Shown: one piece after another, positions 1-22,877 of the stretch | How the letters are laid out: each line of letters begins with the position of its first letter | How positions within the stretch are numbered: the first letter of the stretch is position 1 | Origin: an uncultured virus (IMG/VR IMGVR_UViG_650377941_000004) | Lineage: Duplodnaviria; Heunggongvirae; Uroviricota; Caudoviricetes | IMG/VR virus record: IMGVR_UViG_650377941_000004 | Direction: 5' to 3' (one strand) | Length of the DNA stretch: 64,000 nt | Made by a program: the position numbers and the translations under genes | Notes under the pieces: model-generated | The model's database searches: none | Told to the model about the DNA's origin: nothing | Seen by the model: only the letters and a program-made list of their open reading frames with translations

Positions 1-38
1 TCAAGAGGCCGTGAGTTCGATTCTCGCCACTCGGACCA
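1..38 (+). tRNA. 3' half of a tRNA gene (possibly tRNA-Pro), prophage integration target
   Basis: TCAAG-AGGCC-GTGAG TTCGATT CTCGC-CACTCGG-A-CCA: T-arm, acceptor 3' strand and CCA. The anticodon lies outside the window, so the isotype is a guess. Confidence 0.8.
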
Positions 39-2608: not shown

Positions 2609-2876
2609 ACACATTGTAGAAGCGCTGAACAAAAAGACGTTTGATGAAATCGACCCGGACGAAGTTCTGAAACATTACGGCTACAAGCCGGAAGAAGTTC
2701 GTTGCAACGGCGTCGGGATCGGTGTATGGCGCAAGGAAGAAGCGTTTCAGAAGTTGGGGGACATCGGGGCATTCATGAGGTTTGTTGACCATAAAGCAAA
2801 AGCCCGGATCGAGTTCAACTACGACCCGGACTTTCCGGCGGCGTTGCTTATTACACACGCCGCCACAAAGACGTAA
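2592..2876 (+). CDS. Hypothetical phage protein
   Basis: ORF with GGAG RBS overlapping the end of cro. Confidence 0.65.
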   Translation: MTLKPEHIVEALNKKTFDEIDPDEVLKHYGYKPEEVRCNGVGIGVWRKEEAFQKLGDIGAFMRFVDHKAKARIEFNYDPDFPAALLITHAATKT

Positions 2877-2878
2877 GA

Positions 2879-3088
2879 TCAGTTTCCCAGAAGCGTGCAT
2901 TTGCATCCTTGAGGAAAACAAGGAGAAGATTCAAAGTCCTCTGGCGATGTCCAGCAAACCTCTGCGGATTCAAGGCCGGATGTTCCAACCTTTTCAAAGA
3001 CTTCCCATGCGTACTGTTCCATTTTCTTACAAGCTGCTATACGTTCAGATATGGGTAGTGCGCAAAGATCGACAAAGTAGTATTTCAT
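2879..3088 (-). CDS. Small hypothetical protein (counter-oriented, moron-like)
   Basis: GGAGGGGG RBS and upstream TATAAT on the minus strand. Confidence 0.55.
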   Translation of the reverse strand: MKYYFVDLCALPISERIAACKKMEQYAWEVFEKVGTSGLESAEVCWTSPEDFESSPCFPQGCKCTLLGN

Positions 3089-3174
3089 AAATTCACCCCC
3101 TCCCCATTTTATATGTTCAAATTATAGCACGGCGGGGAGTACAAGCACAACAAGGAGCACGAGGGTATGAGCAA

Positions 3175-3360
3175 ATGGCCGAAAAGATGAAGCCGGACAA
3201 GCTGATGCTGGATGTCCGGCAGGCCGACGCCGCGGGGCTGTCCTACGGCAGGTGGAGATTTGAAGAAACCGAGCGTATTCGCAAGGGAAAAGAGATCATC
3301 CGCCGTCAGTGCGAAGAACGGCGGCGTCGGCGAGATGAAGCCTTATCTGGCAAGGGCTGA
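3175..3360 (+). CDS. Hypothetical phage protein
   Basis: RBS; AxxAGLSYGRW motif common in Clostridial phage small proteins. Confidence 0.6.
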   Translation: MAEKMKPDKLMLDVRQADAAGLSYGRWRFEETERIRKGKEIIRRQCEERRRRRDEALSGKG

Positions 3361-3418
3361 AAGAACACGCCAGAGCGGCCCGCATGGGCAGGCGGTATGT
3401 CCGACACCGCCTTTATAT

Positions 3419-3486
3419 GGTGCGGCCAGTGCAGGCGGGGAGCGTCAAGCCCCGCCGCCCGGTGTCAACTCCGGGGCGCACCCCCA
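3419..3486 (+). ncRNA. tRNA-like structured RNA 1
   Basis: GGTGCG/CGCACC acceptor-like stem + CCA, CCCGG/CCGGG T-like arm, internal GGCGGGG/CCCCGCC hairpin, no D arm. Confidence 0.5.
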
Positions 3487-3525
3487 TATCCGAAAATTTA
3501 CCTGCAAGCAGAAAGGACAAAGAGT

Positions 3526-3873
3526 ATGGCATACGCATTTATTCACGGAGAGGTCAAGGGCAGCGGTGCGTCGGTCGAGTTCAAGGGAAACGGGCTTGAT
3601 CTGCTGGATTTGACGATCCAGATCGTGGGCAGCGTTGTAGCAGAAGTTCCCGAACCGCTTCGTCCGCACGTTATCAAGAAGATTCAGGACAAAATTCCTG
3701 ATGCGGTGCAGAACGATTTGGAAGCGCAGGGAAAGGCGGCTCCGGCAGAGAAGAAGGAAAAGCCTCCCGTTGGCGAAACGGTGGGGTTCCGCATGGCCCG
3801 GCAGTTTGCAGAGACAGAGCCGGGCTTCAAGGACTTCATTATGGCGCTGGCCGACAAGTTGTCGAACGGCTGA
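3526..3873 (+). CDS. Hypothetical phage protein
   Basis: AAGGA RBS; paralog-like N-terminus to the next gene. Confidence 0.7.
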   Translation: MAYAFIHGEVKGSGASVEFKGNGLDLLDLTIQIVGSVVAEVPEPLRPHVIKKIQDKIPDAVQNDLEAQGKAAPAEKKEKPPVGETVGFRMARQFAETEPGFKDFIMALADKLSNG

Positions 3874-3889
3874 GTTTGGAGGTCGGAAT

Positions 3890-4186
3890 ATGAACTGCAA
3901 TGTAAAAATCACAGCCGTGGGAACGGCTGACGGTCTGGAAGTCAGCATTCACGGCGGTTCGGTTGGCATGATGACGGCGGCAGAGCTTATTGTGGTCCGT
4001 GTCCTCATGGCAGTAGCAGACGACGAGGAAAATCTGGCAGGTCTGAAAGACAGTATGTTTGAGATTATCAATGAAATGGTCAAGGACTGCTGGGCTGAAA
4101 AGACGGCCAAGACGGAAGCCGAAAAAGAAGCTGCAGTCAACCAGCTGAAAGCCTTTGTGGCAATGCTCTTTGAACCGGAGGACTGA
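3890..4186 (+). CDS. Hypothetical phage protein
   Basis: GGAGG RBS. Confidence 0.7.
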   Translation: MNCNVKITAVGTADGLEVSIHGGSVGMMTAAELIVVRVLMAVADDEENLAGLKDSMFEIINEMVKDCWAEKTAKTEAEKEAAVNQLKAFVAMLFEPED

Positions 4187-4407
4187 CACAGGGCGGTTCC
4201 AATGGCGGGAGGAACGAAAACAAAACCCGCTGCCAGAAATACAGGCAGAAAGGCGGGGGAGTGTGAGCAGTGAATTTACGCCCTTTGTGGCGGCGTCCAT
4301 GCGGGAAATGCTTTTGGATATGCTCGAAAAGCACCCGGAGATTTTCGACAGACCGACAAGATACCCGGAGGGCCGGGCAGAATTTTTGAAACAGAAGGAG
4401 CCGAACC

Positions 4408-4974
4408 ATGGATAACGAAAAACTGTATGAGGACATGAAGCCGAAAGAAAAGTTTGAGGTTCTCTGGGCGGAGAGCGGCCTTGCTGATCGTCCGGGAGCG
4501 GAAAACCTTTGGCAGCAGATGGTGGCTTTAGGGTTCTTTGAAAAGCCTGCAAGCATTAAGCACCATTCCAACCATCCCGGCGGTCTGTGTGAGCACTCGG
4601 TTTGTGTGGCAGAGGCGGCAATGGAACTGTGCAGAACAAATCACGCTTTCAAAAAGTGTAACCGGAATGAAGTTCTTGCGGCGGCGCTCCTGCACGACTA
4701 TTGCAAGGTGGGCAAGTACCGCGATAAAGGCAACGGCGAGTACGAATACTTTGACGCCGGTCTGGTGGGCCATGGAGAAGGAAGCGTCATCATGGCACAG
4801 CAGTACATCAAGCTGACGGCGCGGGAGATCGTGGCGATTCGCTGGCACATGGGAGCATACAGCGGGTCGCAGGACTGGGATACGCTCAGTGCTGTTTATG
4901 ACCGCTACCCGGAAGCCCTGTGTCTGCACTTCGCGGATATGATCGCTACACACTACGATGAAGTTCCTTTCTGA
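4408..4974 (+). CDS. HD-domain phosphohydrolase
   Basis: PAS..HH...GGL.EHS, LLHDYCKVG, GHGEGS, IRWHMG, LHFAD motifs. Confidence 0.9.
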   Translation: MDNEKLYEDMKPKEKFEVLWAESGLADRPGAENLWQQMVALGFFEKPASIKHHSNHPGGLCEHSVCVAEAAMELCRTNHAFKKCNRNEVLAAALLHDYCKVGKYRDKGNGEYEYFDAGLVGHGEGSVIMAQQYIKLTAREIVAIRWHMGAYSGSQDWDTLSAVYDRYPEALCLHFADMIATHYDEVPF

Positions 4975-5197
4975 GGCTGTAAATGAAGGTACATAACAGA
5001 AGTCCCACCGAAAAAGACCTGCACAAAAATGAACAGTGCAGGCACACGTTCGAGATCACCCACAAACGGTGTGCACCGTGCAGTGGCTATGATACGAACT
5101 GTGAACGTTACGAAAAAACCAAGGGTGCTGCTGATACAAAAACATCTAAGGTATGAATGAGCCGCCACGCACCGCGTCAGCGCGGCGGCTTTTATAT

Positions 5198-5265
5198 GGC
5201 GCGGGGCTGAACCTTGAAACGACGCAGGGGGAAACCGCCAGCGGGGCCACACCCCGTCCGCGCCG
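5198..5265 (+). ncRNA. tRNA-like structured RNA 2
   Basis: Perfect 7-bp GGCGCGG/CCGCGCC stem, 5-bp arm with a 7-nt loop in the T-arm position, non-canonical interior. Confidence 0.5.
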
Positions 5266-5549
5266 CTTTGCAGCAGGTATTCATGGAAGCCGGTGCGTTT
5301 GTCCATAATTTGACGCACCGACAGGGGCAGAGGGTGCCGTATGGCGGCGTTTCTCCCGTGTAAGCTGGTGCAAGACCACGCTGCCTTTCTGCCAAGCTAC
5401 GCCCGCATGACGGTGCGGAAACCGATTTGGGCGTGCACGCCGCATGAGCGAAGAAATGCCTTGTCCGATCCACCCAAGCCAAAGGTGGAAGGTCTGCTTG
5501 ACCAAGACCGGCCCGCCGCGCTGCTCTCTTGCGCGGTGGGTTCTGATAT

Positions 5550-5626
5550 GCGGGTGCAGCAAGGAAGTTGTCCGCCGTCCTGATCCCCCATCGGTAGGCA
5601 AGCCGGTTCGATTCCGGCCACCCGTG
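5550..5626 (+). ncRNA. tRNA-like RNA 3 (non-canonical anticodon arm; possibly a pseudo-tRNA)
   Basis: GCGGGTG/CACCCGT acceptor stem, GCAA/TTGT D-like arm, GCCGG TTCGATT CCGGC T-arm. Confidence 0.6.
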
Positions 5627-5662
5627 CAAGAACTATGAAAAAATCAATAGGAGGTAAAAAGA

Positions 5663-5863
5663 GTGCTTTACGTCGATGCAATAAGGATTTTGGAGAAAAT
5701 TGCACAGGCGAGATTCCTTCACGCGACAATGCCGAAACAAGAAGAAATCGAAGAAGCGATTAAGGTTGTGGCAAGTCAGGTAACGGTTCAGGCTTGTCCG
5801 GGCTTCGCGCTTCATGCCGCACTGTGGTGGATGGCAATTAAATCTAAAGAGGCAGAAGAATGA
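5663..5863 (+). CDS. Hypothetical phage protein
   Basis: GGAGG RBS; stop overlaps the MTase start. Confidence 0.65.
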   Translation: MLYVDAIRILEKIAQARFLHATMPKQEEIEEAIKVVASQVTVQACPGFALHAALWWMAIKSKEAEE

Positions 5864-7275
5864 TTCATTTGGGCGACATTACTAAAATCCATGGAGACCA
5901 GATTGAACCCGTGGACTGCATCACGTTTGGTTCGCCTTGTCAGGATTTGTCCATGGCAGGCTTGAGAGCTGGCCTTGAGGGGAAAAATTCCGGTCTGTTC
6001 ACAGAAGCCATAAGAGTTATTGTAGAAATGAGGGTTGCCACAAATGGAATGTATCCAGCTTTCGCTATCTGGGAAAATGTTCCCGGAGCTTTCAGCTCAA
6101 ACGGCGGAGAAGATTTCAGAACCGTGCTGGAAAAACTTGCCCACGCGGCACAACCAGACGTTTCAATTCCTCGACCTGCGGGGGGGGGGGGGCGATGGTG
6201 CAAGGCCGGAGCAATCATCGGAAACGGCTGGTCTCTGGCATGGCGGTTGCTCAACGCTGAACGTTGGGGAGTGCCCCAGCGTAGAAAGCGTATCGCAGTT
6301 GTCGCAGATTTTAGAGGTCAATGTGCCGCAGAGATACTTTTTGAGCGCACGGGCCTGTCAGGGAATCCTGACAAGAGCATCCCGACGTGGCAAAGCGTTA
6401 CCGGATTTACTCAAAACTGCCCTGCTGGACATGATCGAGTGGTGGCAGGGGAGGCAGCCTACACCCTGAAAATCCGTTCGGGATGTGCAGGAGGCGGGAA
6501 AGGCGCACTGGTGCAGACAGAAAAGACGGGAACGCTCTCGACGCTTCAAGACCAGACCCTTTTCCAGCCAATCGTCTTTGACGCTCGTGGAAATGGCAAC
6601 GGTAAGACAGTTCCGACCATTACCGGGGATCATGAGAGCCGCGTCACAGACTATACGGCTATTGCGGTCGATCTGTACAACGGAGCTGTTACCGGAAGCA
6701 AGGCGGCAGCCTTGAGTTGCAAGAATACCGGGACGACAGCGGGGCCGCAGGTTGCTGAAAGAAAAACCTATAGCGAGCAGACTTTCTCTACATACAAGGA
6801 AAGCGACAGCAGTGCAACACTGAAAGCGAAAACGGGAAATATCGGAAACGGTGGGGAATGCCTTGTGGCGGAACGTGTCGTGCGCTGGATCGTCCGAAGA
6901 TTGACCCCGACGGAATGTGAGCGCCTGCAGGGATACCCGGACGGATGGACAGACATCGGGGAATGGACGGACACCAAAGGGAAAAAGCATAAACCGGCAG
7001 ATACGCCGCGCTATAAGGCACTGGGAAACAGCATTGCCCTTCCGCAGTGGTTCTGGATTGCCCAGAAGATGCGGCCATACCTGAAAGATAAGCCAACACT
7101 GGGAAGCCTGTTTGATGGAATTGGCGGTTTCCCGCTTGTGTGGGAGACGGCATATGGAGCAGGTACAGCAGTGTGGGCGTCTGAAATTGAAGAATTTCCA
7201 ATTGCAGTAACAAAAAGGTGGTTTGGAAATGACACGGAAAATGAAAGCAATTCTGGTGCTGTTCTTCGCGGCTGA
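5860..7275 (+). CDS. DNA (cytosine-5) methyltransferase, circularly permuted
   Basis: GSPCQD, WENVPG, PQRRKR, RRLTPTECERLQG, YKALGNS; motif I (SLFDGIGG) is at the C-terminus. Confidence 0.92.
   Translation: MIHLGDITKIHGDQIEPVDCITFGSPCQDLSMAGLRAGLEGKNSGLFTEAIRVIVEMRVATNGMYPAFAIWENVPGAFSSNGGEDFRTVLEKLAHAAQPDVSIPRPAGGGGRWCKAGAIIGNGWSLAWRLLNAERWGVPQRRKRIAVVADFRGQCAAEILFERTGLSGNPDKSIPTWQSVTGFTQNCPAGHDRVVAGEAAYTLKIRSGCAGGGKGALVQTEKTGTLSTLQDQTLFQPIVFDARGNGNGKTVPTITGDHESRVTDYTAIAVDLYNGAVTGSKAAALSCKNTGTTAGPQVAERKTYSEQTFSTYKESDSSATLKAKTGNIGNGGECLVAERVVRWIVRRLTPTECERLQGYPDGWTDIGEWTDTKGKKHKPADTPRYKALGNSIALPQWFWIAQKMRPYLKDKPTLGSLFDGIGGFPLVWETAYGAGTAVWASEIEEFPIAVTKRWFGNDTENESNSGAVLRG
6044..6469 (+). CDS. 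Alternative-frame overlapping MTase subunit (M.EcoHK31I beta-like)
   Basis: Nested +1 ORF with LSQILE..VPQRYFLSARACQGILTRA..RGK.LP. Confidence 0.6.
   Translation: MECIQLSLSGKMFPELSAQTAEKISEPCWKNLPTRHNQTFQFLDLRGGGGDGARPEQSSETAGLWHGGCSTLNVGECPSVESVSQLSQILEVNVPQRYFLSARACQGILTRASRRGKALPDLLKTALLDMIEWWQGRQPTP
6180..6192. repeat. G13 homopolymer in the MTase gene
   Basis: 13 consecutive G. Confidence 0.9.
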
Positions 7276-7759
7276 GATCGTCAACAGCGCAAAGGTCGGC
7301 GTACTGAAAGGCCGTATTGCAGACCTTGAGACCCAGCGGGATATTTACGCAAGCCGTGCCCAGAACTGGCTTGACCGGGCTGTAGAGGACGAAGAAGTTA
7401 TTGATTCTCTGCAAATTCGCCTTGATGAAACAGCGGACAGGAAAATCGAGCTGACAGAGGCAGGTACATTTTTCTGCACGGCATATTGCACAGAACAGTA
7501 CGAACATATCTGCGGAGAAGGACACGGAATTACGGCCAGCGGCCAGCCTATACAGGCAGGCGTCACTGTGGCAGCGGACACGTCCATCTTTCCGTATGGA
7601 ACGGTTCTGTACATTGAGGGCGTAGGAATCCGCATTGTGCAGGACAAAGGAGCCGCCATTCAGGGAAAACACCTTGATGTAGCTGTGGACACTCACGAGA
7701 ATGCCGAGAAGTGGAACGGCTGTGGAAATCATAGAGTATGGGTTTTGAAGGAGGAATAA
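7241..7759 (+). CDS. 3D-domain (cell-wall binding/lytic) protein
   Basis: TAYC...GITASG...VAAD..IFPYGT.LYIEGVG...QDKGAAIQG.HLDV; hydrophobic N-terminus. Confidence 0.85.
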   Translation: MKAILVLFFAAEIVNSAKVGVLKGRIADLETQRDIYASRAQNWLDRAVEDEEVIDSLQIRLDETADRKIELTEAGTFFCTAYCTEQYEHICGEGHGITASGQPIQAGVTVAADTSIFPYGTVLYIEGVGIRIVQDKGAAIQGKHLDVAVDTHENAEKWNGCGNHRVWVLKEE

Positions 7760-7762
7760 ACT

Positions 7763-8257
7763 ATGGCGAACTGGGTAAAAGGAAAACTTAAAATCCGCGG
7801 AAAGCCGGAAGATATTAAGCGGTGGGTGGAAGAATGCCTGCACTGCTACTTCACAAAGTGGTTTAGAGATGGCTCATACGAAGATGAACTTGTAGATGAC
7901 GCTGTCGTATTTGAACATGATCCGAAAGCCCGCGAGATGCGTTTGGATACGATCGAGGACGCTTATATCGAAGGAACGAAAAGAAACTTTGTTGAAAAGG
8001 GGGTCTACGGGGATTCTTACAGAGAAGATGAAAAGCCGATCCTTGTTGTAAGCATGAAAGCAGCATGGAACGTTGATGAAACGCCCTACATTGAAATGTC
8101 CAAAAAGTACAATGTGGATTTCCGCGTGTATGGATATGAAATGGGTTTGGAGTTCAACAGGGAAATTGAGATCGTGGAGGGCAGACTTGTCACGAACCGG
8201 AGAATCAAATTTAAGGACTACAAATGGGAATGCCCTGATCCGACGCTTGGAGGGTGA
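7763..8257 (+). CDS. Hypothetical phage protein
   Basis: GGAGG RBS; long ORF in operon. Confidence 0.75.
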   Translation: MANWVKGKLKIRGKPEDIKRWVEECLHCYFTKWFRDGSYEDELVDDAVVFEHDPKAREMRLDTIEDAYIEGTKRNFVEKGVYGDSYREDEKPILVVSMKAAWNVDETPYIEMSKKYNVDFRVYGYEMGLEFNREIEIVEGRLVTNRRIKFKDYKWECPDPTLGG

Positions 8258-8260
8258 GCG

Positions 8261-8512
8261 GTGAAGATAAAAAGAGCGCTGGAAGAAGTTGCAGCAGAGG
8301 CCCAGAAGGATGGGTATGGGTTTGAATATATGCGAAACATCCGGGATGGATCGCTTGAAATGAGAATTTTCAAGGGACGATTTGGCGAAAGGGTGACTTT
8401 ACCCGTCAGGGAAGTGGTCGAGCATGAAACGTCCGGGACGGGGCACAAGCTCATTTTCGATACTTACTTTGCCCTGAAAGATCAATACGAGAGGGACGAA
8501 GTATGGATGTGA
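8261..8512 (+). CDS. Hypothetical protein
   Basis: RBS, operon spacing. Confidence 0.6.
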   Translation: MKIKRALEEVAAEAQKDGYGFEYMRNIRDGSLEMRIFKGRFGERVTLPVREVVEHETSGTGHKLIFDTYFALKDQYERDEVWM

Positions 8513-8712
8513 AGCAGTCTCAAAAGGCAGGAAATAATGCAATTCAAATCCAGCAAACGGTTGTCGGAGACAATAACTATGTTGTCGGAATTGAAATTGA
8601 GAACGACAGCCGCAAGCCGAACGACAACCAGCCCAAAAGGTCACTTCTGCGTAGGCTTGCTGCTTTTCTAAATGATATGGTAGCGGAGATTATCGACGCA
8701 TTGGAGCTGTGA
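8503..8712 (+). CDS. Hypothetical protein
   Basis: Overlapping operon spacing. Confidence 0.55.
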   Translation: MDVKQSQKAGNNAIQIQQTVVGDNNYVVGIEIENDSRKPNDNQPKRSLLRRLAAFLNDMVAEIIDALEL

Positions 8713-8713
8713 A

Positions 8714-8935
8714 ATGACCCAGTATTGCAGATATTGTTCACTGGCGTCCCTGCAGGACGACGATCTAATTTACTGTGAAGCAAGAAAAGAAATCCGGGAT
8801 AAAAAGAAAATTGTCAGCCCGAACCGCTGCAAGCAGTTTGAATTTAATCCGGTTGATGTCCTGAACGAAGAAAAGGACTACAAGCCGCGCGAAACGAAAA
8901 ATAAGAATCCAGAGGGGCAGGTGAGCTTCCTGTAA
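8714..8935 (+). CDS. Small Cys-rich protein
   Basis: CRYC...C...C pattern. Confidence 0.6.
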   Translation: MTQYCRYCSLASLQDDDLIYCEARKEIRDKKKIVSPNRCKQFEFNPVDVLNEEKDYKPRETKNKNPEGQVSFL

Positions 8936-9027
8936 TGGGATTATCAAAGTGGCGTCCCTATTTACCACGATCCGATTTAATCCAGCTTTCGCCCGTACAT
9001 AAACGCATGAGCGAAAGTTGAGGAAAC

Positions 9028-9939
9028 ATGATTCTTTTTATTATCGGCGCACTGTTTGTACTGATCGCGCTGGCTATCCTGATTTTCTCGGATGATGCAA
9101 AAAGAACTGCAATCATCCCGGCGGTGGTGGCTGTCATTTTTATCGGCATTTCCTGTGTGTCCTATGTCCCTACCGGCTATACCGGCATCGTCACGACCTT
9201 TGGCAAAGTCGAGGATGGCACGAAGGACGCAGGTGTGGTGTTCAAGGCCCCGTGGCAGTCCATCGTGAAGATGGATAACCGTGTTCAGGAAATGAGCATG
9301 GACTTGTCAGCATTCAGTTCTGACATTCAGGAAGTCTCCACCAGTGTGGCGGTTGGCTACCGGATCAATCAGGCAAATGCAATGACCATCTACAAAGAGG
9401 TCGGCAAAAAGTATGAGGACACCCTGATTACTCCCCGTGTCCTTGAAACGGTGAAAGCTGTAGTTGCCCACTACGATGCAAGCAGCCTGATTTCTAACCG
9501 GGATGCAGTCGCTTCCCAGATGGACACGAAACTGCGGGAAGTGCTGGCACAGTACAACATCGACCTGCAGTATATCAGCGTAACCAATTTTGACTTCACT
9601 GATACCTTTACCGATGCGGTGGAAGCAAAGGTCAAGGCCCAGCAGGAAAAGGAAAAAGCCGAGACTGACGCCGACAAGCGCCGTGTCGAAGCACAGGCCA
9701 CGGCGGACGCTGACCTGATCGCAGCCAATGCGGAAGCGGAAAAGTCTAAGGTTGCAGCGGACGCAGAGTTGTACGTTGCAGAGAAAAAGGCGGAAGCAAA
9801 CCGCGCCTTGAACGACAGTCTGAACAGCAACCTGCTGGAATACTACAAGATCACCGACGTGGAATCCCGCTGGAACGGTGAACTGCCTGCCTATGTTGGC
9901 GATGGTAACAGCATCCCCATTATCAACGGCATCAACTGA
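9028..9939 (+). CDS. SPFH/band 7 (prohibitin) family membrane protein
   Basis: Two N-terminal TM helices, VPTGYTGIVTTFGKV, FTDAVEAKVKAQQ coiled coil, RWNGELP. Confidence 0.9.
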   Translation: MILFIIGALFVLIALAILIFSDDAKRTAIIPAVVAVIFIGISCVSYVPTGYTGIVTTFGKVEDGTKDAGVVFKAPWQSIVKMDNRVQEMSMDLSAFSSDIQEVSTSVAVGYRINQANAMTIYKEVGKKYEDTLITPRVLETVKAVVAHYDASSLISNRDAVASQMDTKLREVLAQYNIDLQYISVTNFDFTDTFTDAVEAKVKAQQEKEKAETDADKRRVEAQATADADLIAANAEAEKSKVAADAELYVAEKKAEANRALNDSLNSNLLEYYKITDVESRWNGELPAYVGDGNSIPIINGIN

Positions 9940-9945
9940 TCTTTT

Positions 9946-9974
9946 GGAGCCGCCCAGAGCGGCGGCTCCTTTTT
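9946..9974 (+). terminator. Terminator-like hairpin
   Basis: GGAGCCGCC CAGAGC GGCGGCTCC followed by TTTTT. Confidence 0.7.
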
Positions 9975-9978
9975 ATAT

Positions 9979-10024
9979 GAGCATAGGGAATAGGCCCCGC
10001 CCGGTTCAAGCCCGGAAGTGCCCA
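9979..10024 (+). ncRNA. Minimal tRNA-like RNA 4
   Basis: CCGG TTCAAGC CCGG T-arm, imperfect GAGCAT/GTGCCC stem, preceded by TTTATAT. Confidence 0.4.
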
Positions 10025-10055
10025 CCGAAAGAAAATGAGCAGAAAGGAGCAGAAA

Positions 10056-10241
10056 ATGGCAAAGTTCAGTATCATGCTGTTCGGCATTGACAGCTACACG
10101 AAAAACAAGATGCAGCTACCGTACAAGCTGGACGCAAAAAGCTCAGATGCAGCACTCCGTGAGGCACGGATGTGCGCAATGACCTTTTATCCGAGGTTTA
10201 GTGAAACGGAAAAACCGGACGTGGAGGTGGTCAAAAGATGA
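10056..10241 (+). CDS. Hypothetical protein
   Basis: AAGGAG RBS. Confidence 0.6.
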   Translation: MAKFSIMLFGIDSYTKNKMQLPYKLDAKSSDAALREARMCAMTFYPRFSETEKPDVEVVKR

Positions 10242-10879
10242 AACTTTCAGGGCTGACAAAGATGGTCAAGCGGCAGCTTGTCTGCAATGTTTTCCATAAC
10301 GACGAGAGTGATGATTTCTACATTGGAACTGCGTCGGCGATTTACTGCGCTACCGGTTTCCCGCGTCCGCTGAACCGCAACCAGATGGGCGCTATGCTGG
10401 GAATCAGCGAGGATACCATGATCGAAAAGGTGGTTTACAACGACTTCGACTGTGCATACAAAATTGATTTTCAGGGTTTCAATCTTGACGACACAATTAA
10501 GGATGAAGTCGAAGTGAAGAAACTGGGCATCGGTATTTACTGCAGTGGAGAAATCCTTATCCCGCTTGTGACCGAGGATCGCCACATGGTCGGCATTATC
10601 TGTCAGTCGCACCTTGCGCCGCTGGAGGATGAAATTAAGAATAACGGTTTTATCCGCTATTACCAGAGAAAACAAACCGACGGAACGGTTTATTATGTCG
10701 TGAAGAACGGCATGAGGGTACGAGCCGCCGTTATGGCATATACGGTGCCGGACTACGCAGAAGCAAAGCTGCAAGAACTGGTTGCAATGCTGGCAGAAAC
10801 TCACATCGGTGAACAGGAAGAACCGGAACAGACGTTCGATGATTTGAACGCCGAAAAGGATTCCGAGCAGCAGGAGTAA
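10238..10879 (+). CDS. Hypothetical phage protein
   Basis: Long ORF, ATGA coupling. Confidence 0.75.
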   Translation: MKLSGLTKMVKRQLVCNVFHNDESDDFYIGTASAIYCATGFPRPLNRNQMGAMLGISEDTMIEKVVYNDFDCAYKIDFQGFNLDDTIKDEVEVKKLGIGIYCSGEILIPLVTEDRHMVGIICQSHLAPLEDEIKNNGFIRYYQRKQTDGTVYYVVKNGMRVRAAVMAYTVPDYAEAKLQELVAMLAETHIGEQEEPEQTFDDLNAEKDSEQQE

Positions 10880-18162: not shown

Positions 18163-18246
18163 GGTTTGTATCTCCTTTTCGTTTTGTGGTAGCCTTGCGG
18201 CTGGGGCTGGGCTGCTTTGAACGGTGCAACCCGGCTAGAGTATCCG

Positions 18247-19869
18247 TTATTCGCCAAGCTGTAAAAGCGTGGCTTTCGTGGGGATCAGATGCCGTGCAAG
18301 AGTGTCCGTGTAACTCGCTTCGCCCTCGTAGCTGTCCACGATCTTCTGCTCTGCCTTGCTCATGTCGTGGTAGGATTTCTTGCCGTAGGACGGCGGCAAC
18401 CATCCTTTCTTCTGGCTGGCGAACAGGTTGAACGACTTCAAAACGTCGTCATTCGTGAATGTGATGTGGCAAGTGCCTTTTTTGTAGAAAGTGGCGGTGA
18501 AGTAGCGGAACTGCACGTTCTGGCTTTGTCCGCTCTCCTCGGCGGCTTTGAGCGTTGCCCGGAGTTCGTCGCCGTTGTACTTCTTGCCGTTCGTGTCGAG
18601 ATAGTGCAGGGTGCGCTCGATTCGTGACAGGCAGCTCTCAGCGTTCCAACCGGGTTCAAACCGCCCGGAGTAATCACCCCACGCCGAACACCGAAAGATC
18701 ACTTTCTTGCCGACTTTGTACGCTTCGTTCGTGCACCAGCCGTTGTAATAGTGAACGTTCTTCGAGTATTCGGAATTGTAGTGCAGATTTGTCCAGTCGT
18801 TGAAAAGGCCGATTATTTCATCTTCAATGCCGTTCACGATGTTAGCGGACATTTCTTCCCGGATCGTTAGAATGTTGTAGGGGCTGAAATCGTAGTTGGC
18901 AAGCTCGGAGATTCGGTTCTGGTACTCGCACTGCATCGCTTGCGTGAGGTTGTCCCGGATTTGCGGCAGGTCAAAGAGCTTCTTCCAGTACAAGCTGCGC
19001 AAGCTGTGAATCGCTTCGTTATAGCTCTTGTTGAAGTTCAGCACTTCGGTTTCCTTGTCGTCTGCGGTAGCGGCAGAAAACAGGCTCTTGATTCCGTTGT
19101 ACTCTTCGTAAATACGGCGGATGCCCTCGGCGGCGGCATTGTACCGTTCCACCGCGGCGGCGATGGGATCAGCAGACACCAGCGCGGCAAGCTGCGGATC
19201 GGCTTTCATGCGGTCGGTCATTTCGTTGTTGAGCTCCAACCGGATTTTGCTTACTGGCTCCTTGTCGGGAATGTCAACGGAGATCAACGCCACTTCAACG
19301 CGGGCGGCGCGGCGGGCGTTCTTGAAAGCGTCCGGGATGTATTTGATCTGGGCGTTGAGCTCGTTTAGCTTCTGCGCCAGCTCTTTCCGCTCGTTCGTGT
19401 AGGGATTGCGGATCGTTTCGGCGTTGAGCAGACAGCGGATTTTGCCGCCGTCTTTCATGATCTCTAAAGCCTTGAGCAAGTGAGCAGCACCGGCGGAAAA
19501 AGGCGGGTTCATGATGATCGCCGCGTATTTCTTCGCGGGGCGGAACGTGAGAAAATCGTCATGCACCACGCGGAAACCGTCTTTCTTCAGTTTGGCGCGG
19601 AAGTCGCTGGACAGTTCCACACAGTCAAGATCAAACTCTTTCGCCTTGCTCGTGCTGTAACGGTCAAGCTCTCCCGTTTTGGGATCGTGCCGAATATCTG
19701 CGACGGCGTGAATCTGGCGGGCCAGTGCGCCGTCACCGGCAGAGGGTTCAAGGATGGGCTGCGGCAGGTGCTTCCAGCCGTATTTTGTGCTTTGCAGGCT
19801 GTAAGCCATTTCCCACGCGAGATTGTCCGGGGTGGGGTAAAAGTCCCGGCTATCGTTCGGGGTCGTCAT
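18247..19869 (-). CDS. SAM-dependent DNA methyltransferase-like protein with DUF4942-like domain
   Basis: DFYPTP, ILEPSAGDG, IIMNPPF, C-terminal FYKKGTCHITF. Confidence 0.85.
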   Translation of the reverse strand: MTTPNDSRDFYPTPDNLAWEMAYSLQSTKYGWKHLPQPILEPSAGDGALARQIHAVADIRHDPKTGELDRYSTSKAKEFDLDCVELSSDFRAKLKKDGFRVVHDDFLTFRPAKKYAAIIMNPPFSAGAAHLLKALEIMKDGGKIRCLLNAETIRNPYTNERKELAQKLNELNAQIKYIPDAFKNARRAARVEVALISVDIPDKEPVSKIRLELNNEMTDRMKADPQLAALVSADPIAAAVERYNAAAEGIRRIYEEYNGIKSLFSAATADDKETEVLNFNKSYNEAIHSLRSLYWKKLFDLPQIRDNLTQAMQCEYQNRISELANYDFSPYNILTIREEMSANIVNGIEDEIIGLFNDWTNLHYNSEYSKNVHYYNGWCTNEAYKVGKKVIFRCSAWGDYSGRFEPGWNAESCLSRIERTLHYLDTNGKKYNGDELRATLKAAEESGQSQNVQFRYFTATFYKKGTCHITFTNDDVLKSFNLFASQKKGWLPPSYGKKSYHDMSKAEQKIVDSYEGEASYTDTLARHLIPTKATLLQLGE

Positions 19870-19959
19870 GGTTCGTTCTCCTTTTCGTGTTGGATTCACC
19901 CCGGCGGGGTGTGGGATCGGGTCGCTTTTCGTTCGGTGCGGCCCGTCAAGGCATCCGTT

Positions 19960-20484
19960 TCACTGCTGGGCTAAAATCGTGCTCAACCATGTGGAAGAGT
20001 CGGCGCAATCAACCATTTTCGCAAAGTAGCGGCCCGTTACAAGCTGGAACGCATATTGCGTGGTGTAAGTGCCGCTGTACATTTCCCGGCTGCAAAACTC
20101 TTCGACGTTGTTCCGGGTGTGCAAGCCGCGCGGCGGCAATACGTTCAGCGCGTCCTCATAGTCCTGTTTCGTGATCTCGACCATTTCCGGCGCGAGCAGC
20201 TTTTCCCGCTCAAAGTCCAGCCATTCGCCGTAGGTCATGACGGCATAAGAGCGGGCCTTTTCTTGCGCAAGGCGGCTTTCCCAATATCCCCGGTCGCTTT
20301 CGTGGTCGCCGGACTCGATGATCTGGGTGATCCGCTGGATGCTTTCGGCGGTGCTCTTCCGGGCGGCATTCAACACCTCTTCGGCGGTGCGGGGCGTGGG
20401 CCAGCCGGACACGGTGAAAGCGTAGATCTGGACGTTGGGAACATCCACAACAACAAGTTCGTTTTTTTCTTCGTTGGCGGTCAT
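19960..20484 (-). CDS. Hypothetical protein (DUF1419-like)
   Basis: EIT..DY.DALNVLPP...F...E.YSG.YT pattern; AAAGGAG RBS. Confidence 0.55.
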   Translation of the reverse strand: MTANEEKNELVVVDVPNVQIYAFTVSGWPTPRTAEEVLNAARKSTAESIQRITQIIESGDHESDRGYWESRLAQEKARSYAVMTYGEWLDFEREKLLAPEMVEITKQDYEDALNVLPPRGLHTRNNVEEFCSREMYSGTYTTQYAFQLVTGRYFAKMVDCADSSTWLSTILAQQ

Positions 20485-20580
20485 GGTATAATCTCCTTTT
20501 CGTTTTCGTGATTCACCCCGGCGGGGCGTTGGGATCGGGTCGCTTTGTCCGGTGCGGCCCGTCAAGGTATCCGGGGCGGG

Positions 20581-21555
20581 TCATGCGAGAAGATTTGCGG
20601 CGATGCTCTCAAAATCGAGCTGCTGGACGCTGGGGACCATTTCGGGGGCGTTGCGCTTGTGGCTGAGTTCGTCGAGAGCCATTACAAACGCGGCGGCTTC
20701 GCGGTCGCTGCTGATAAAGTCGCAACGATGATTTGTGAACTGCTGGACGATGGAAGAAAATTCGGGGTCGTTCTTGCTCTTCTGGTCAAACGTCTTGACG
20801 GCTTCCCGGTATTCCTTGCTGTCGTTGTCGTCGTGGGTGCGGTAAAAGTTGGAATACCACTTTTCAAAAACCGGCTCTAACTCTTCCATGTCAACGGCAA
20901 CGGCGGCGGGCTTTTTCGTGGTGCGGGACTTCTTCGGGGCGGGTTTCGTGGGCAGCGGCTCAACATGAACCAGTTCGGGAAGTTCGTGGTGCTCTTCAAC
21001 GACGATCGGCGCGGGGCGGGCAGCTTCGGCGGCTGCTTTTGCGGCGGCTGCTTTTGCGGCGGCTTCCTTTGCGGCCTTGCGTTCGGCGGCAAGCTGCTTG
21101 TTGTAAGCGATGATCTCCGCCGTGGACTTGAACCGGGCTTGCGGGGCGGGCTTGCTGCTTTCAACTTGTAAGCAGCTGAAAAGATGGGACTTCGTAGGGT
21201 AGTAATGCGGATCGGGTGCGGCTTCCTTGCCCTCTGCCGCGGCCTTTTCGCGCTGCTCTTTGCTGGGCTTCGTGGTGTACTTCCACAAGTAGCATTCAAG
21301 CAACGCTTTTTCGCCTTTCTTGACGCTCTTGCCCTCTTTCTTCCAATAGTCGAACGTGTGCAGCTCGTCCGCTGCAAACATGATCTCGATATCCGCGGCG
21401 GTGGCGGGCTTTTCGTTGCCGTCCTTGTCAACGATCTTGCAAGATGCAGCAACGGCGGCGATCTCTTCCGGGGTGTGGTGTACGGCGGCAATCTGGTGCA
21501 GCGTGGCCGGGTCAAGACGTTCAGCGGCGGCGCGGATAATCTGTTTATTCGTCAT
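20581..21555 (-). CDS. Protein with ArdC-like N-terminal ssDNA-binding domain
   Basis: TFDYWKKEGKSVKKGEKA...LW...LFS..QV motif; Ala/Lys linker. Confidence 0.65.
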   Translation of the reverse strand: MTNKQIIRAAAERLDPATLHQIAAVHHTPEEIAAVAASCKIVDKDGNEKPATAADIEIMFAADELHTFDYWKKEGKSVKKGEKALLECYLWKYTTKPSKEQREKAAAEGKEAAPDPHYYPTKSHLFSCLQVESSKPAPQARFKSTAEIIAYNKQLAAERKAAKEAAAKAAAAKAAAEAARPAPIVVEEHHELPELVHVEPLPTKPAPKKSRTTKKPAAVAVDMEELEPVFEKWYSNFYRTHDDNDSKEYREAVKTFDQKSKNDPEFSSIVQQFTNHRCDFISSDREAAAFVMALDELSHKRNAPEMVPSVQQLDFESIAANLLA

Positions 21556-21666
21556 GGTAAATACTTCCTTTCGTGTTTCGTTTTGTGGATCGTCCCGGCG
21601 GTGTGCCGGGGGAATGGGATCGGGTCGCTTTCGTTCGGTGCGGCCCGTCAAGGTATCCGGCGGGGT

Positions 21667-22008
21667 TCAATCTTCGGTTTCGTCGCAATCGTGGCAATAC
21701 AGCGCATCAATAACCTTGTCGTCGCTGAAATCGTCCGGGGTTCCGTTGGCATCGACCACAAGATCGATCCGGTCAAAAATCCGCAAGTCGGTTTCGTTGT
21801 CCACGATGAAAAACCAGTCGTCACCGTCCAGCGCGTCGCTGCACCAGACTTCAATCTGGTTTTCGTTGGTGGCGGTCATGCCTTTCACAATGGCCGGGGC
21901 GATATACCGCCCAAAAGGACCGACTTTGTAGGGACAGGCGGCAGCGGCGCGGGGTGCGCTGGACAGCAGCGCGGCGGCAAGTGCGGCGGCGGTCAAAATT
22001 CGTTTCAT
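21667..22008 (-). CDS. Small acidic protein with signal peptide
   Basis: MKRILTAAALAAALL N-terminus; AAGGAG RBS. Confidence 0.7.
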   Translation of the reverse strand: MKRILTAAALAAALLSSAPRAAAACPYKVGPFGRYIAPAIVKGMTATNENQIEVWCSDALDGDDWFFIVDNETDLRIFDRIDLVVDANGTPDDFSDDKVIDALYCHDCDETED

Positions 22009-22121
22009 GGTTCATATCTCCTTTTTGCTTTCGTGGTGTGTGTTCGGCTTTCTCCCGGACGCTTCCGGGGTGGTGGGATCGGGTCGCTTTTCGTGGTGCG
22101 GCCCGTCAAGGTATCCGGGGG

Positions 22122-22511
22122 TCATGCGTAAATTTCATTGAACACTTCGACGGCGTTCCATTGCACCGCCTTTTCACGCTGGGCAGCTTTCGCGGCGTTC
22201 TGGTCGCCGCCGTTGGCTTTCAATGCCATATAGAAAGCATCAACAAGGGCGGCTTTTTGCCGTTCGCGTTCCCGATATGCGGCGATCTGTCCGGCGTCAT
22301 ACACCTTGACCGCCCACGATTCATAGTGAATCGGGGTCAATGTTTCATGGTGCAAGCCCTTGCAGCGGTTCAGAACGGCAACGATCTTACCGGCATCCTC
22401 ATAAGTTGGGGCGGCGATGATGTAGCAAGGGACAGCGGCGCGGGCTTGCTTCTCGATGTTCCACCGGTGACGGGTGGCAATCTGGTTTATTTTCTTGTCG
22501 AATGCGGTCAT
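22122..22511 (-). CDS. Hypothetical protein
   Basis: AAGGAG RBS. Confidence 0.7.
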   Translation of the reverse strand: MTAFDKKINQIATRHRWNIEKQARAAVPCYIIAAPTYEDAGKIVAVLNRCKGLHHETLTPIHYESWAVKVYDAGQIAAYRERERQKAALVDAFYMALKANGGDQNAAKAAQREKAVQWNAVEVFNEIYA

Positions 22512-22606
22512 GTTCTCGATCTCCTTTTGATTTTTTGATTCACCCCGGCGGGGCGGTGGCATAGGGTTGCTTTTGCGGCAGCGGTGCAGCCCTTGAAAGT
22601 GTCCGC

Positions 22607-22635
22607 TTGACTTTACCGGCGAAAGCTGGTAGAAT
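22607..22635 (+). promoter_or_regulatory. Sigma-A-type promoter for an antisense sRNA
   Basis: TTGACT-17-TAGAAT with extended -10 TG. Confidence 0.75.
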
Positions 22636-22638
22636 CAT

Positions 22639-22709
22639 TGCAAGATCGGAACTCGAAAACCTATCTTGCAAGCCTGTCACCCTTTACCGGGTGGCGGGCT
22701 TTTTCTTTT
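22639..22709 (+). ncRNA. Putative antisense sRNA (type I antitoxin-like)
   Basis: TGCAAGAT/ATCTTGCA hairpin + terminator AGCCTGTCACCC/GGGTGGCGGGCT-TTTTCTTTT. Confidence 0.6.
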
Positions 22710-22782
22710 GCCATTCGGCAAGAAGAGCAGCCCAAACTGCCCGCTTGACGGCTTTCGGCAGCTTGAAAAACTCTTTATTCAC
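22684..22782 (-). CDS. 32-aa peptide MNKEFFKLPKAVKRAVWAALLAEWQKKKPATR
   Basis: GAGGTG RBS, GTG start; fills the slot after a repeat copy; below the ORF track size cutoff. Confidence 0.6.
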   Translation of the reverse strand: MNKEFFKLPKAVKRAVWAALLAEWQKKKPATR

Positions 22783-22877
22783 GCTTTTCACCTCTTTTCT
22801 GGTTTGATTCACCCCGGCGGGGTGTTGGGATCGGGTCGCTTTCAGCGGTGCGGCCCGTCAAGGTGTCCGGCGGCGAG

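What the first reader, a model, noticed from the sequence alone, without database searches (positions are those of the whole stretch)
3390..10024. Repeated hairpin + ATAT + tRNA-like RNA modules in the early operon
Seen: four loci share one architecture. A GC-rich hairpin (3390-3412, 5160-5190, 5510-5542, 9946-9969) is followed by TTTATAT or CTGATAT, then a G-starting fold with acceptor-like stem and T-like arm (3419-3486, 5198-5265, 5550-5626, 9979-10024) but no canonical anticodon arm. A more degenerate fifth may lie at ~5324-5390. Known: acceptor + T-arm is the RNase P/RNase Z recognition unit, and phage P1 C4 and P4 CI RNAs are RNase P-processed regulators. Inference: processed regulatory sRNAs, tRNA decoys against anticodon nucleases, or transcript-processing signals.
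Basis: partly seen in the sequence, partly recalled or inferred. Interest (0 to 1): 0.7.

Follow-up and report, generated by a model that had tools for sequence, protein, structure and literature searches.

The report
tRNA-like RNA punctuation in gut phage
A Faecalibacterium prophage carries, between its early genes, four conserved folded RNA elements that copy the body and the upstream cutting-site context of host tRNAs, so they probably tell host tRNA-trimming enzymes where to cut the phage's long early transcript.

Summary
The window is a Faecalibacterium prophage: 100% identical to phage Lelie and 98.3% to FP_Toutatis over the 7.2 kb compared.

All four modules are real, intergenic and on the gene strand. 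Each has a GC hairpin, a U/A-rich linker ending in A/G-U, and a G-start multi-helix fold. No tRNA finder or Rfam 15 family claims them.

- **Module 3 (5550-5625)** is a tRNA-Gly(UCC)-derived look-alike. Its acceptor stem and T arm covary across at least six prophage lineages, but the anticodon arm is replaced by a variable stem with a conserved C-rich loop.
- **Modules 1 and 2** are paralogous three-way junctions and show compensatory changes.
- **Module 4** is a conserved mini acceptor-plus-T-arm, with covariation at only one pair.
- **The "fifth" element** is not a module. It belongs to a conserved, covarying ~245-nt structured RNA between modules 2 and 3. That locus always follows a small zinc-ribbon ORF.

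The ...AU|G junction matches genuine pre-tRNA leaders of a host genome. The best reading (about 0.5) is RNase P/Z-type processing that leaves hairpin-protected mRNA 3' ends. I obtained no expression or cleavage data, so function remains inferred.

The parts
3390..3412 (+). Hairpin before module 1: 7-bp GC stem, 9-nt loop, followed by only 3 U
   Evidence: MFE fold; sequence
3413..3418 (+). Linker UUAUAU ending in A-U before G+1 of module 1
3419..3482 (+). Module 1: three-way junction with P1 GGUGCG/CGCACC, P2 GGCGGGG/CCCCGCC and P3 CCCGG/CCGGG. It is a paralog of module 2.
   Evidence: The covariance model built from module-2 sequences alone hits 3413-3485 (18.8 bits, E 0.01), the only other hit in the 64 kb. 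A homolog in a group-3 prophage carries compensatory changes in P1 and P3. Among the 10 distinct close variants, changes fall in loops or the tail, or create G-U pairs.
4983..5156 (+). Small zinc-ribbon-like ORF (57 aa; QCxHTFxIT...CAPCxGY...CxxY) that always lies directly upstream of the RNA locus
   Evidence: no Pfam family
5159..5191 (+). Hairpin H1 plus an invariant UUUU tract: a canonical intrinsic-terminator shape
   Evidence: In 12 sequences from several lineages, 5 of 11 pairs show compensatory change and the U tract is kept.
5198..5264 (+). Module 2: 7-bp closing stem P1, a variable hairpin P2, a 4-nt joiner and a conserved hairpin P3 (GGGGCC..CCCC) that abuts the 3' strand of P1
   Evidence: A9: 21 pairs, 13 with changes on both sides, 93.9% of cells paired, 0 of 500 shuffles as high
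5265..5510 (+). Central conserved structured non-coding RNA (~245 nt). Its function is unknown.
   Evidence: Conserved across lineages with non-triplet indels. RNAalifold predicts 37 pairs, 12 of them compensatory, including a long-range YCAUG/CAUGR helix. No Rfam match.
5511..5541 (+). Hairpin H2: 11-bp GC stem with no proper U tract. The structure is kept with entirely different sequences in other lineages.
5550..5625 (+). Module 3: a tRNA-Gly(UCC)-derived tRNA-like RNA. It has a 7-bp acceptor stem, a short D-like arm with GG and a canonical T arm. The anticodon arm is replaced by a longer interrupted stem with a CCCCC loop. The discriminator is G at 5626 and there is no encoded CCA.
9946..9969 (+). 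Hairpin before module 4: 9-bp stem with 8 GC pairs, followed by UUUUU. Terminator shape.
   Evidence: Hairpin sequence nearly unchanged in all three lineages; the U tract is lost in group 3.
9979..10023 (+). Module 4: a mini tRNA-like fold. It has a 6-position acceptor-like stem with a conserved A.C mismatch, a small GGG/CCC hairpin and a T arm with a UUCAAGC loop.

Best explanation
The four modules are conserved cis-encoded RNA structures in the rightward early transcript of a Toutatis-like Faecalibacterium prophage. Each one imitates a tRNA precursor. A U/A-rich leader ends in A/G-U. A G+1 then opens a terminal stem that stacks on a 3' hairpin, as the acceptor stem stacks on the T arm.

Module 3 is a full tRNA-Gly-derived look-alike. 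Module 4 is a cut-down one. Modules 1 and 2 are paralogous three-way junctions.

Inferred mechanism:
1. Host RNase P cuts immediately 5' of G+1.
2. For the CCA-less module 3, RNase Z probably cuts after the discriminator.
3. The polycistronic early RNA is thereby punctuated.
4. The upstream mRNA is left ending in a stable GC hairpin that shields it from 3' exonucleases.
5. The downstream mRNA starts at or behind a compact fold, just upstream of a purine-rich leader and ribosome-binding site.
6. Small tRNA-like RNAs and the ~245-nt central RNA are released as discrete species.

Two of the hairpins (before modules 2 and 4) also have full terminator shape. Processing would therefore act on read-through transcripts.

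Shown: structure, conservation, covariation, tRNA-Gly ancestry and leader mimicry. Inferred: transcription, cleavage and any stabilising effect.
For: Identity and context
- The tested 7.2 kb (3000-10200) matches Lelie at 100% and FP_Toutatis at 98.3%. No RNA genes are annotated at these sites.

Module 3
- In 20 sequences from four sequence groups plus one recombinant, 98.8% of cells are paired, 7 of 12 pairs change on both sides, and 0 of 500 shuffles do as well.
- An independent set gives the same picture. It was found downstream of the zinc-ribbon ORF in 37 of 40 loci (23 distinct). Two of the three misses end before the expected site, and one hit is cut off. In this set 98.5% of cells are paired and 6 of 12 pairs change on both sides.
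- G-U pairs place the RNA on the + strand.
- The best real-tRNA matches of the module-3 model are host tRNA-Gly(UCC) genes. In alignment they share the leader ...ATAT|GCGGG and the T loop.
- In one lineage the Rfam tRNA model scores 26.3 bits, just under its cut-off of 29.
- Of 41 distinct full-length copies, 40 keep GG in the D region. The leader is ATAT|G in 32, TTAT|G in 8 and ATAT|A in 1.

Leader mimicry
- The sample is 37 tRNA genes lying around the 30 best tRNA hits of the nearest genome, G001.
- U is at -1 in 28 of 37.
- The last two leader bases are AT in 18 and GT in 6 of 37.
- ATAT is present in 8 of 37.

Modules 1, 2 and 4
- Module 2: 13 of 21 pairs are compensatory and 93.9% of cells are paired.
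- Module 1 is hit by the module-2 model and covaries in a second lineage.
- Module 4 is conserved in three lineages, and pair 6:67 varies as AU, UA, UG and CG.

Hairpins
- Hairpins are kept as structures even where the U tract is absent or lost (H2 in most lineages, and the module-4 hairpin in group 3). This fits a 3'-end protecting role better than pure termination.
Against: - There are no expression, end-mapping or cleavage data.
- None of the modules encodes a 3' CCA.
- The 3' hairpins of modules 1 and 2 lack a T loop.
- Module 4 has a conserved A.C mismatch and a 2-3-nt offset between its stems, and it shows covariation at only one pair.
- Single-sequence folds are not unusually stable (z -0.8 to -1.7).
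- H1 keeps an invariant UUUU tract in 12 of 12 sequences, and the module-4 hairpin has 5-6 U in two of three lineages. These look like efficient terminators, which would leave the downstream modules untranscribed unless there is read-through or antitermination.
- The A/U-rich linker could simply be the terminator tail.
- Sequence conservation goes beyond what cutting needs. Examples are the C-run in the module-3 loop (CCC in 39 of 41 copies) and the near-invariant module-2 P3. This hints at a further or different function.
- The covariation counts come from related sequences, so they are not independent events.
- The module-1 hit has E 0.01 from a roughly calibrated model whose leader positions add to the score.
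Confidence: 0.5

Rival explanations
1. The elements are stand-alone functional small RNAs, and processing is only their maturation step. Module 3 would be a tRNA-scaffolded RNA whose conserved C-rich loop binds a host or phage partner. Candidates are a factor that recognises the tRNA-Gly anticodon loop (decoy) or G-rich mRNA sites (regulator). The central ~245-nt RNA, perhaps together with the zinc-ribbon protein, would be the main product of the locus. This is not exclusive of the best explanation.
For: - The loop motif (A)UYCCCC(A)U is kept while the stem beneath it changes completely in sequence and length. CCC is present in 39 of 41 distinct copies and CCCC in 31 of 41.
- Module-2 P3 and its joiner are almost invariant.
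- The central RNA has its own covarying helices.
- The locus is tightly linked to one small ORF (37 of 40 loci).
Against: - I noticed no complementary G-run conserved across lineages when reading the alignments; this was not searched systematically.
- The discriminator is G or A rather than the U seen in the three host tRNA-Gly genes aligned.
- The loop is 5-19 nt, so it is not an anticodon-loop mimic in shape.
- Modules 1 and 4 have no comparable conserved single-stranded motif.
- There are no expression data.
Confidence: 0.25
2. The hairpins are ordinary intrinsic terminators that partition the early region. The downstream folds are 5'-UTR structures (mRNA stabilisers or insulators against 5' exonuclease) on read-through or re-initiated transcripts. 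RNase P plays no part.
For: - H1 and the module-4 hairpin fit the terminator consensus, and the H1 U tract is invariant.
- Modules 1, 3 and 4 each lie about 30-40 nt upstream of the next start codon, followed by a purine-rich leader.
Against: - The consensus scan lists no promoter-like site between any hairpin and the next gene, and the 6-10-nt linker leaves no room for one.
- H2 lacks a U tract in most lineages, and the module-4 hairpin loses it in group 3, yet both hairpins are conserved.
- This reading does not explain the tRNA-Gly ancestry, the canonical T loop, the D-loop GG or the pre-tRNA-like leader.
Confidence: 0.15
3. The folds are cis-acting processive antitermination RNAs, in the manner of HK022 put or the Bacillus EAR element. 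They would modify RNA polymerase so that it reads through the next terminator in the operon.
For: Several terminator-shaped hairpins sit inside one operon, which implies that some read-through mechanism exists. Each fold is a compact ~45-76-nt multi-hairpin RNA transcribed before the next terminator.
Against: No sequence or Rfam similarity to any known antitermination RNA. The tRNA-derived architecture has no precedent for that role. Each fold directly follows a hairpin rather than preceding one.
Confidence: 0.05
4. The elements are decaying tRNA pseudogenes or chance GC-rich folds with no function.
For: tRNA finders reject all four, and single-sequence z-scores are weak.
Against: Compensatory changes maintain the stems across lineages whose flanking HD protein is only 66-67% identical. 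The non-coding locus contains many invariant columns across lineages whose flanking HD protein is only 66-67% identical.
Confidence: 0.03

Closest known systems
Host tRNA-Gly(UCC) genes and their precursors
   Same: Module 3 shares several features with them: the leader ...AUAU|G, a GCGGG acceptor start, the UUCGAUU T loop, D-loop GG, and a C-rich motif at the place of the CUUCCAA anticodon loop.
   Different: There is no 5-bp stem with a 7-nt anticodon loop. The discriminator is G or A rather than U. No CCA is encoded. ARAGORN and the Rfam tRNA model reject it.
tRNA-like processing signals: mitochondrial tRNA punctuation, plant mitochondrial t-elements, and the MALAT1 mascRNA with its upstream 3'-end-protecting structure (recalled from memory, not from a call)
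   Same: A tRNA-shaped element inside a longer transcript would recruit RNase P/Z. A stable structure immediately upstream would protect the new 3' end.
   Different: Those systems are organellar or nuclear. Here the setting is a temperate phage of a gut Firmicute, the protecting structure is a terminator-like hairpin, and cleavage is untested.
Phage P1 C4 and P4 CI RNAs; the phi80 M3 RNA; T4 species 1 and 2 RNAs (recalled from memory)
   Same: Phage-encoded non-tRNA RNAs matured by RNase P, or tRNA-like stable RNAs of unclear role.
   Different: C4 and CI are antisense immunity regulators with defined targets. I found no target complementarity here, and the elements recur between early genes rather than in an immunity region.
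RNase III processing sites between early genes of T7 and of Bacillus phage SP82 (recalled from memory)
   Same: Structured intergenic sites that cut a polycistronic early transcript and leave stabilising hairpins.
   Different: The stems here are 7-11 bp, too short for RNase III by what I recall of its substrates. The fold is tRNA-like, pointing to a different enzyme.
Acceptor-stem/T-arm minihelix model substrates of bacterial RNase P (recalled from memory)
   Same: In module 2 a terminal stem stacks directly on a 3' hairpin (7+6 bp). Modules 1 (6+5 bp) and 4 (6+4-5 bp) are similar but have 1-3 unpaired nt between the two. All have U-1 and G+1.
   Different: There is an extra arm, no RCCA tail, and the loops of modules 1 and 2 are not T loops.

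Membership tests
tRNA (Rfam RF00005 / ARAGORN) | 7-bp acceptor stem and a 5-bp T stem with a UUCRANY loop | tested here: met
   Met by module 3 only. Module 4 has a 4-5-bp T stem with a canonical loop. Modules 1 and 2 do not meet it.
tRNA (Rfam RF00005 / ARAGORN) | 5-bp anticodon stem with a 7-nt loop, and a score above the family cut-off | tested here: not met
   ARAGORN gives 0 tRNAs in the window and 0 in 10 related loci. There is no RF00005 hit at E<=10 in the window region. None of the 65 tRNA hits in G001 lies at the module-3 locus. The best score in any lineage is 26.3 bits against a cut-off of 29. Loops are 5-19 nt.
RNase P substrate (pre-tRNA-like) | Coaxial terminal stem plus T-stem-like helix of about 12 bp, with a G+1 pair and U at -1 | tested here: met
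   Module 3 has 7+5 bp. Module 2 has 7+6 bp. Module 1 has 6+5 bp with 1 unpaired nt. Module 4 has 6+4-5 bp with a 2-3-nt offset. U-1/G+1 holds in all four and matches host tRNA leaders.
RNase P substrate (pre-tRNA-like) | 3' RCCA tail | tested here: not met
   The 3' flanks are G-CAAG, GCUUUG, CCCAUA and ACCG.
RNase P substrate (pre-tRNA-like) | Actual cleavage 5' of G+1 | not testable with these tools
   No RNA run held the phage.
Intrinsic (Rho-independent) terminator | GC-rich hairpin directly followed by a U tract | tested here: inconclusive
   Met by H1 (invariant UUUU) and by the module-4 hairpin in groups 1 and 2. Not met by H2 in most lineages, by the module-4 hairpin in group 3, or by the module-1 hairpin, which has only 3 U.
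Any Rfam 15 family, including tmRNA, Y RNA-like, ROOL, GOLLD and ribozymes | Covariance-model match | tested here: not met
   The gathering-threshold search gives only RAGATH-5 elsewhere in the window. E-value searches of 2800-10800, of 5150-5640 and of three diverged loci give only terminator-like or T-arm fragments.
RNase P-processed phage antisense regulators (P1 C4 / P4 CI) | Complementarity to a target site in the phage's own transcript | not tested
   No systematic search was done. I noticed no conserved G-run complementary to the module-3 C-loop when reading the alignments.

The most novel reading that the evidence does not exclude
The locus encodes a phage RNA system rather than mere punctuation. 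After RNase P/Z maturation and CCA addition, module 3 becomes a stable tRNA-Gly mimic. Its conserved C-rich loop would then capture a host factor that normally reads the tRNA-Gly anticodon loop, such as a tRNA-targeting defence enzyme or toxin, or would pair with G-rich ribosome-binding sites. The ~245-nt central RNA and the always-adjacent zinc-ribbon protein would form a previously unknown ribonucleoprotein acting early in infection.
Probability: 0.18. Interest if true: 0.8.

Novelty: new variant of a known kind. Interest (0 to 1): 0.6.

Why it matters
- If the modules are cut by RNase P/Z, this would show a temperate phage of a major human gut commensal using tRNA-style punctuation to shape its early transcripts. 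That strategy is textbook for organelles but barely documented for phages.
- Whatever the function, the work defines at least three uncatalogued RNA families, none of them in Rfam 15: a tRNA-Gly-derived look-alike with a C-rich loop, a three-way-junction minihelix, and a ~245-nt structured RNA.
- These families recur in Faecalibacterium prophages: about 10 of 91 genus genomes searched, and 37 of the 40 zinc-ribbon-ORF loci tested (of 148 found in IMG/VR).
- They give concrete coordinates for end-mapping experiments.
- The same phage also places RAGATH-5 elements in every gap of another operon, which suggests that intergenic RNA processing is a general theme of its gene expression.

Tried and rejected
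- **Expression data.** The look-up of sequencing runs listed no RNA holder. Of the runs laid, three raw-read RNA runs of the same species label cover only positions 1-38, the host flank. Their strain lacks the prophage. The fourth run is probably DNA. Nothing can be said about expression.
- **Own genome.** The window's assembly is not held. I used the nearest genome G001 and the virus record G002 instead.
- **Known RNA families.** tmRNA, RNase P RNA, Y RNA-like, ROOL/GOLLD and self-cleaving ribozymes were considered for the central region. Rfam gave no support.
- **Promoter in the linker.** I considered ATAT as a -10 box. No promoter-like site lies between any hairpin and the next gene, and the spacing to G+1 is wrong.
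- **Small ORFs.** I considered ORFs starting at the AUG/GUG formed by the junction. There is no ribosome-binding site, the frames differ, and the indels in relatives are not multiples of three.
- **Frameshift-suppressor tRNA-Gly with a CCCC anticodon.** Rejected because the loops are 5-19 nt on stems of variable length.
- **Module 1 in group 2.** It was not found within 2.5 kb upstream in those phages.
- **Genome-contig scan with the central motif.** Of 12 hits, only 1 is a true locus (Faecalibacterium intestinale). The other 11 lack module 3 and are taken to be chance matches.
- **Two module-3 copies in G471.** They belong to an exact 2,064-bp tandem duplication and are not independent.
- **Literature.**
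  - In the Lelie paper I saw only passages found by term search. 'tRNA', 'non-coding' and 'terminator' each occur 0 times.
  - 'tRNA-like' with 'Faecalibacterium' returns 1 paper, judged unrelated from its title and abstract start.
  - 'RAGATH-5' returns none.
  - For all other papers I saw search listings only.

Full report
**Identity and setting**

The tested 7.2 kb (window 3000-10200) is 100% identical to Faecalibacterium phage Lelie and 98.3% identical to FP_Toutatis. Neither record annotates any RNA at the sites in question. The finding lies in the rightward early operon. That operon sits downstream of a serine-recombinase gene and divergent repressor-type genes. It encodes mostly unknown proteins plus an HD-domain protein, a cytosine methylase, a 3D-domain protein and an SPFH protein.

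**The observation**

- Four GC hairpins lie at 3390-3412, 5159-5191, 5511-5541 and 9946-9969.
- Each is followed by a 6-10-nt U/A-rich linker ending in ATAT.
- A G then opens a terminal stem. The folds span 3419-3482, 5198-5264, 5550-5625 and 9979-10023.
- TKATATG occurs 14 times in the window against 7.37 +/- 2.55 expected, and 0 of 100 shuffles reach 14. The other ten sites have no such hairpin.
- ARAGORN finds no tRNA.
- Rfam finds nothing at the modules at gathering or E-value thresholds.
- Single-sequence folding energies are unremarkable, with z between -0.8 and -1.7. The case therefore rests on comparison with relatives.

**Relatives**

I anchored searches on flanking proteins, on a conserved non-coding motif and on covariance models. 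This recovered the same elements in at least six sequence groups of Faecalibacterium prophages and IMG/VR contigs.

Between groups whose HD protein is 66-67% identical, the whole 5157-5662 intergenic region stays alignable. It has many invariant columns and indels that are not multiples of three. So modules 2 and 3 are the two ends of one ~470-nt conserved non-coding locus.

**Module 3**

- In 20 sequences, 98.8% of cells are paired and 7 of 12 pairs in the acceptor and T stems change on both sides. None of 500 shuffles or slid registers comes close.
- A model built from these finds only this site in the window at a significant score (83.7 bits; the next best are 10.7 and 9.9 bits).
- An independent sample was taken downstream of a small zinc-ribbon ORF.
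  - The model hit 37 of 40 loci. Two of the three misses end before the expected position, and one hit is cut off.
  - Of the 23 distinct sequences, 98.5% of cells are paired and 6 of 12 pairs are compensatory.
- G-U pairs fix the RNA on the + strand.
- In the genus, about 10 of 91 genomes have a hit of 40 bits or more.
- In 151 genomes across the family, only the nearest genome G001 has a hit clearly above the tRNA range; the next best is 41 bits.
- The weaker hits are real tRNAs, and the best of them are tRNA-Gly(UCC).
- Aligned with those genes, module 3 shares several features:
  - the leader ...ATAT|GCGGG;
  - the T loop;
  - a C-rich motif where the CUUCCAA anticodon loop would be.
- In one lineage the Rfam tRNA model scores 26.3 bits against a cut-off of 29.
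- Module 3 is therefore a tRNA-Gly derivative that has lost its decoding arm. In its place is a stem of variable sequence and length with a 5-19-nt loop.
- Of 41 distinct full-length copies, the loop region keeps CCC in 39 and CCCC in 31. GG is kept in the D region in 40.

**Modules 2 and 1**

- Module 2 has four parts:
  - a 7-bp closing stem;
  - a variable hairpin;
  - a 4-nt joiner;
  - a nearly invariant hairpin that abuts the 3' strand of the closing stem.
- Of its 21 pairs, 13 are compensatory, 93.9% of cells are paired, and 0 of 500 shuffles do as well.
- A model built only from module-2 sequences gives one other hit in the 64 kb: 3413-3485, exactly module 1 (18.8 bits, E 0.01, rough calibration).
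- A group-3 prophage carries a module-1 homolog with compensatory changes in the closing stem and the 3' hairpin.
- Among the 10 distinct close variants of module 1, substitutions fall in loops or the tail, or create G-U pairs.
- Modules 1 and 2 are thus paralogs. They are only loosely tRNA-like.

**Module 4**

- It is conserved downstream of the SPFH gene in three groups and absent from relatives at 78-79% protein identity.
- It reads as a 6-position acceptor-like stem with a conserved A.C mismatch, a small hairpin and a T arm with a canonical loop.
- Only one pair covaries: AU 4, UA 3, UG 3 and CG 1 of 11. The structural evidence here is mainly conservation.

**The 'fifth' element**

It lies inside a ~245-nt central RNA (5265-5510). 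Across 15 sequences this RNA has 37 predicted pairs, 12 of them compensatory, including a long-range YCAUG/CAUGR helix. It has no Rfam match. Its function is unknown.

**Hairpins**

- H1 covaries at 5 of 11 pairs and keeps UUUU in 12 of 12 sequences. It is a canonical terminator shape.
- The module-4 hairpin is terminator-like in two groups but loses its U tract in the third.
- H2 has no proper U tract in most lineages, yet it is kept as a hairpin with unrelated sequences.

**Leader mimicry**

- In 37 tRNA genes around the 30 best tRNA hits of G001, U is at -1 in 28.
- The last two leader bases are AT in 18 and GT in 6.
- ATAT is present in 8.
- A second set of 41 leaders gave AT in 26, but it is biased because the module-3 model includes leader positions.
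- The module junctions use these same endings.

**Interpretation**

What is shown:
- four conserved, strand-specific RNA structures;
- tRNA-Gly ancestry for module 3;
- imitation of the pre-tRNA cleavage context.

What is inferred: host RNase P (and RNase Z at the CCA-less module 3) cuts there. That would leave the upstream mRNAs ending in protective hairpins and would release small RNAs and the central RNA.

I put this reading at about 0.5. The extra sequence constraint in the module-3 loop and in module-2 P3 keeps open a stand-alone RNA function (about 0.25, not exclusive). The remaining rivals are plain terminators plus 5'-UTR folds (0.15), put-like antitermination (0.05), and pseudogenes or chance (0.03).

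No expression evidence could be obtained. Comparisons with t-elements, mascRNA, P1 C4/P4 CI, T7/SP82 RNase III sites and minihelix substrates are from memory.

In the library searches I ran, nothing describes these elements. I saw only listings, apart from term-search passages of the Lelie paper.

Noticed in passing
window 18195-22870, minus strand: Seven RAGATH-5 (RF02685) matches of 53.8-69.9 bits. Each lies in an intergenic gap of the minus-strand operon at about 17.6-23.1 kb, just after a stop codon. Five are followed by a CCCCGCCGGGG hairpin. This is a second kind of intergenic RNA punctuation in the same phage. No paper in the searched library holds the term 'RAGATH-5'.
   Followed up: partly
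window 1-38: The first ~37 bases look like the 3' part (T arm plus acceptor strand) of a host tRNA gene. Reads from a prophage-free strain stop at position 38. This is therefore the prophage/host junction beside a tRNA gene.
   Followed up: partly
window 4983-5156 and loci L209-L288: A small zinc-ribbon-like domain (QCxHTFxIT...CAPCxGY...CxxY) with no Pfam family. It occurs alone (57 aa) or at the C-terminus of ~150-aa proteins, and it always sits immediately upstream of the RNA locus. IMG/VR holds 148 relatives.
   Followed up: partly
downstream of window 5626; loci L046, L058, L035: The genes right after module 3 differ between otherwise near-identical phages. One contig (L035) joins a group-1 left part to a group-2-like module 3. 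The conserved RNA locus therefore sits at a mosaic recombination boundary.
   Followed up: no
L208 (G471:C31) 2972-3050 and 5036-5114: An exact 2,064-bp tandem duplication carries the whole RNA locus twice in one genome. It could be real or an assembly artefact.
   Followed up: no
window 5860-7275 versus FP_Toutatis gp14/gp15: The cytosine-methylase gene is one 471-aa frame in the window but is annotated as two genes in FP_Toutatis.
   Followed up: no
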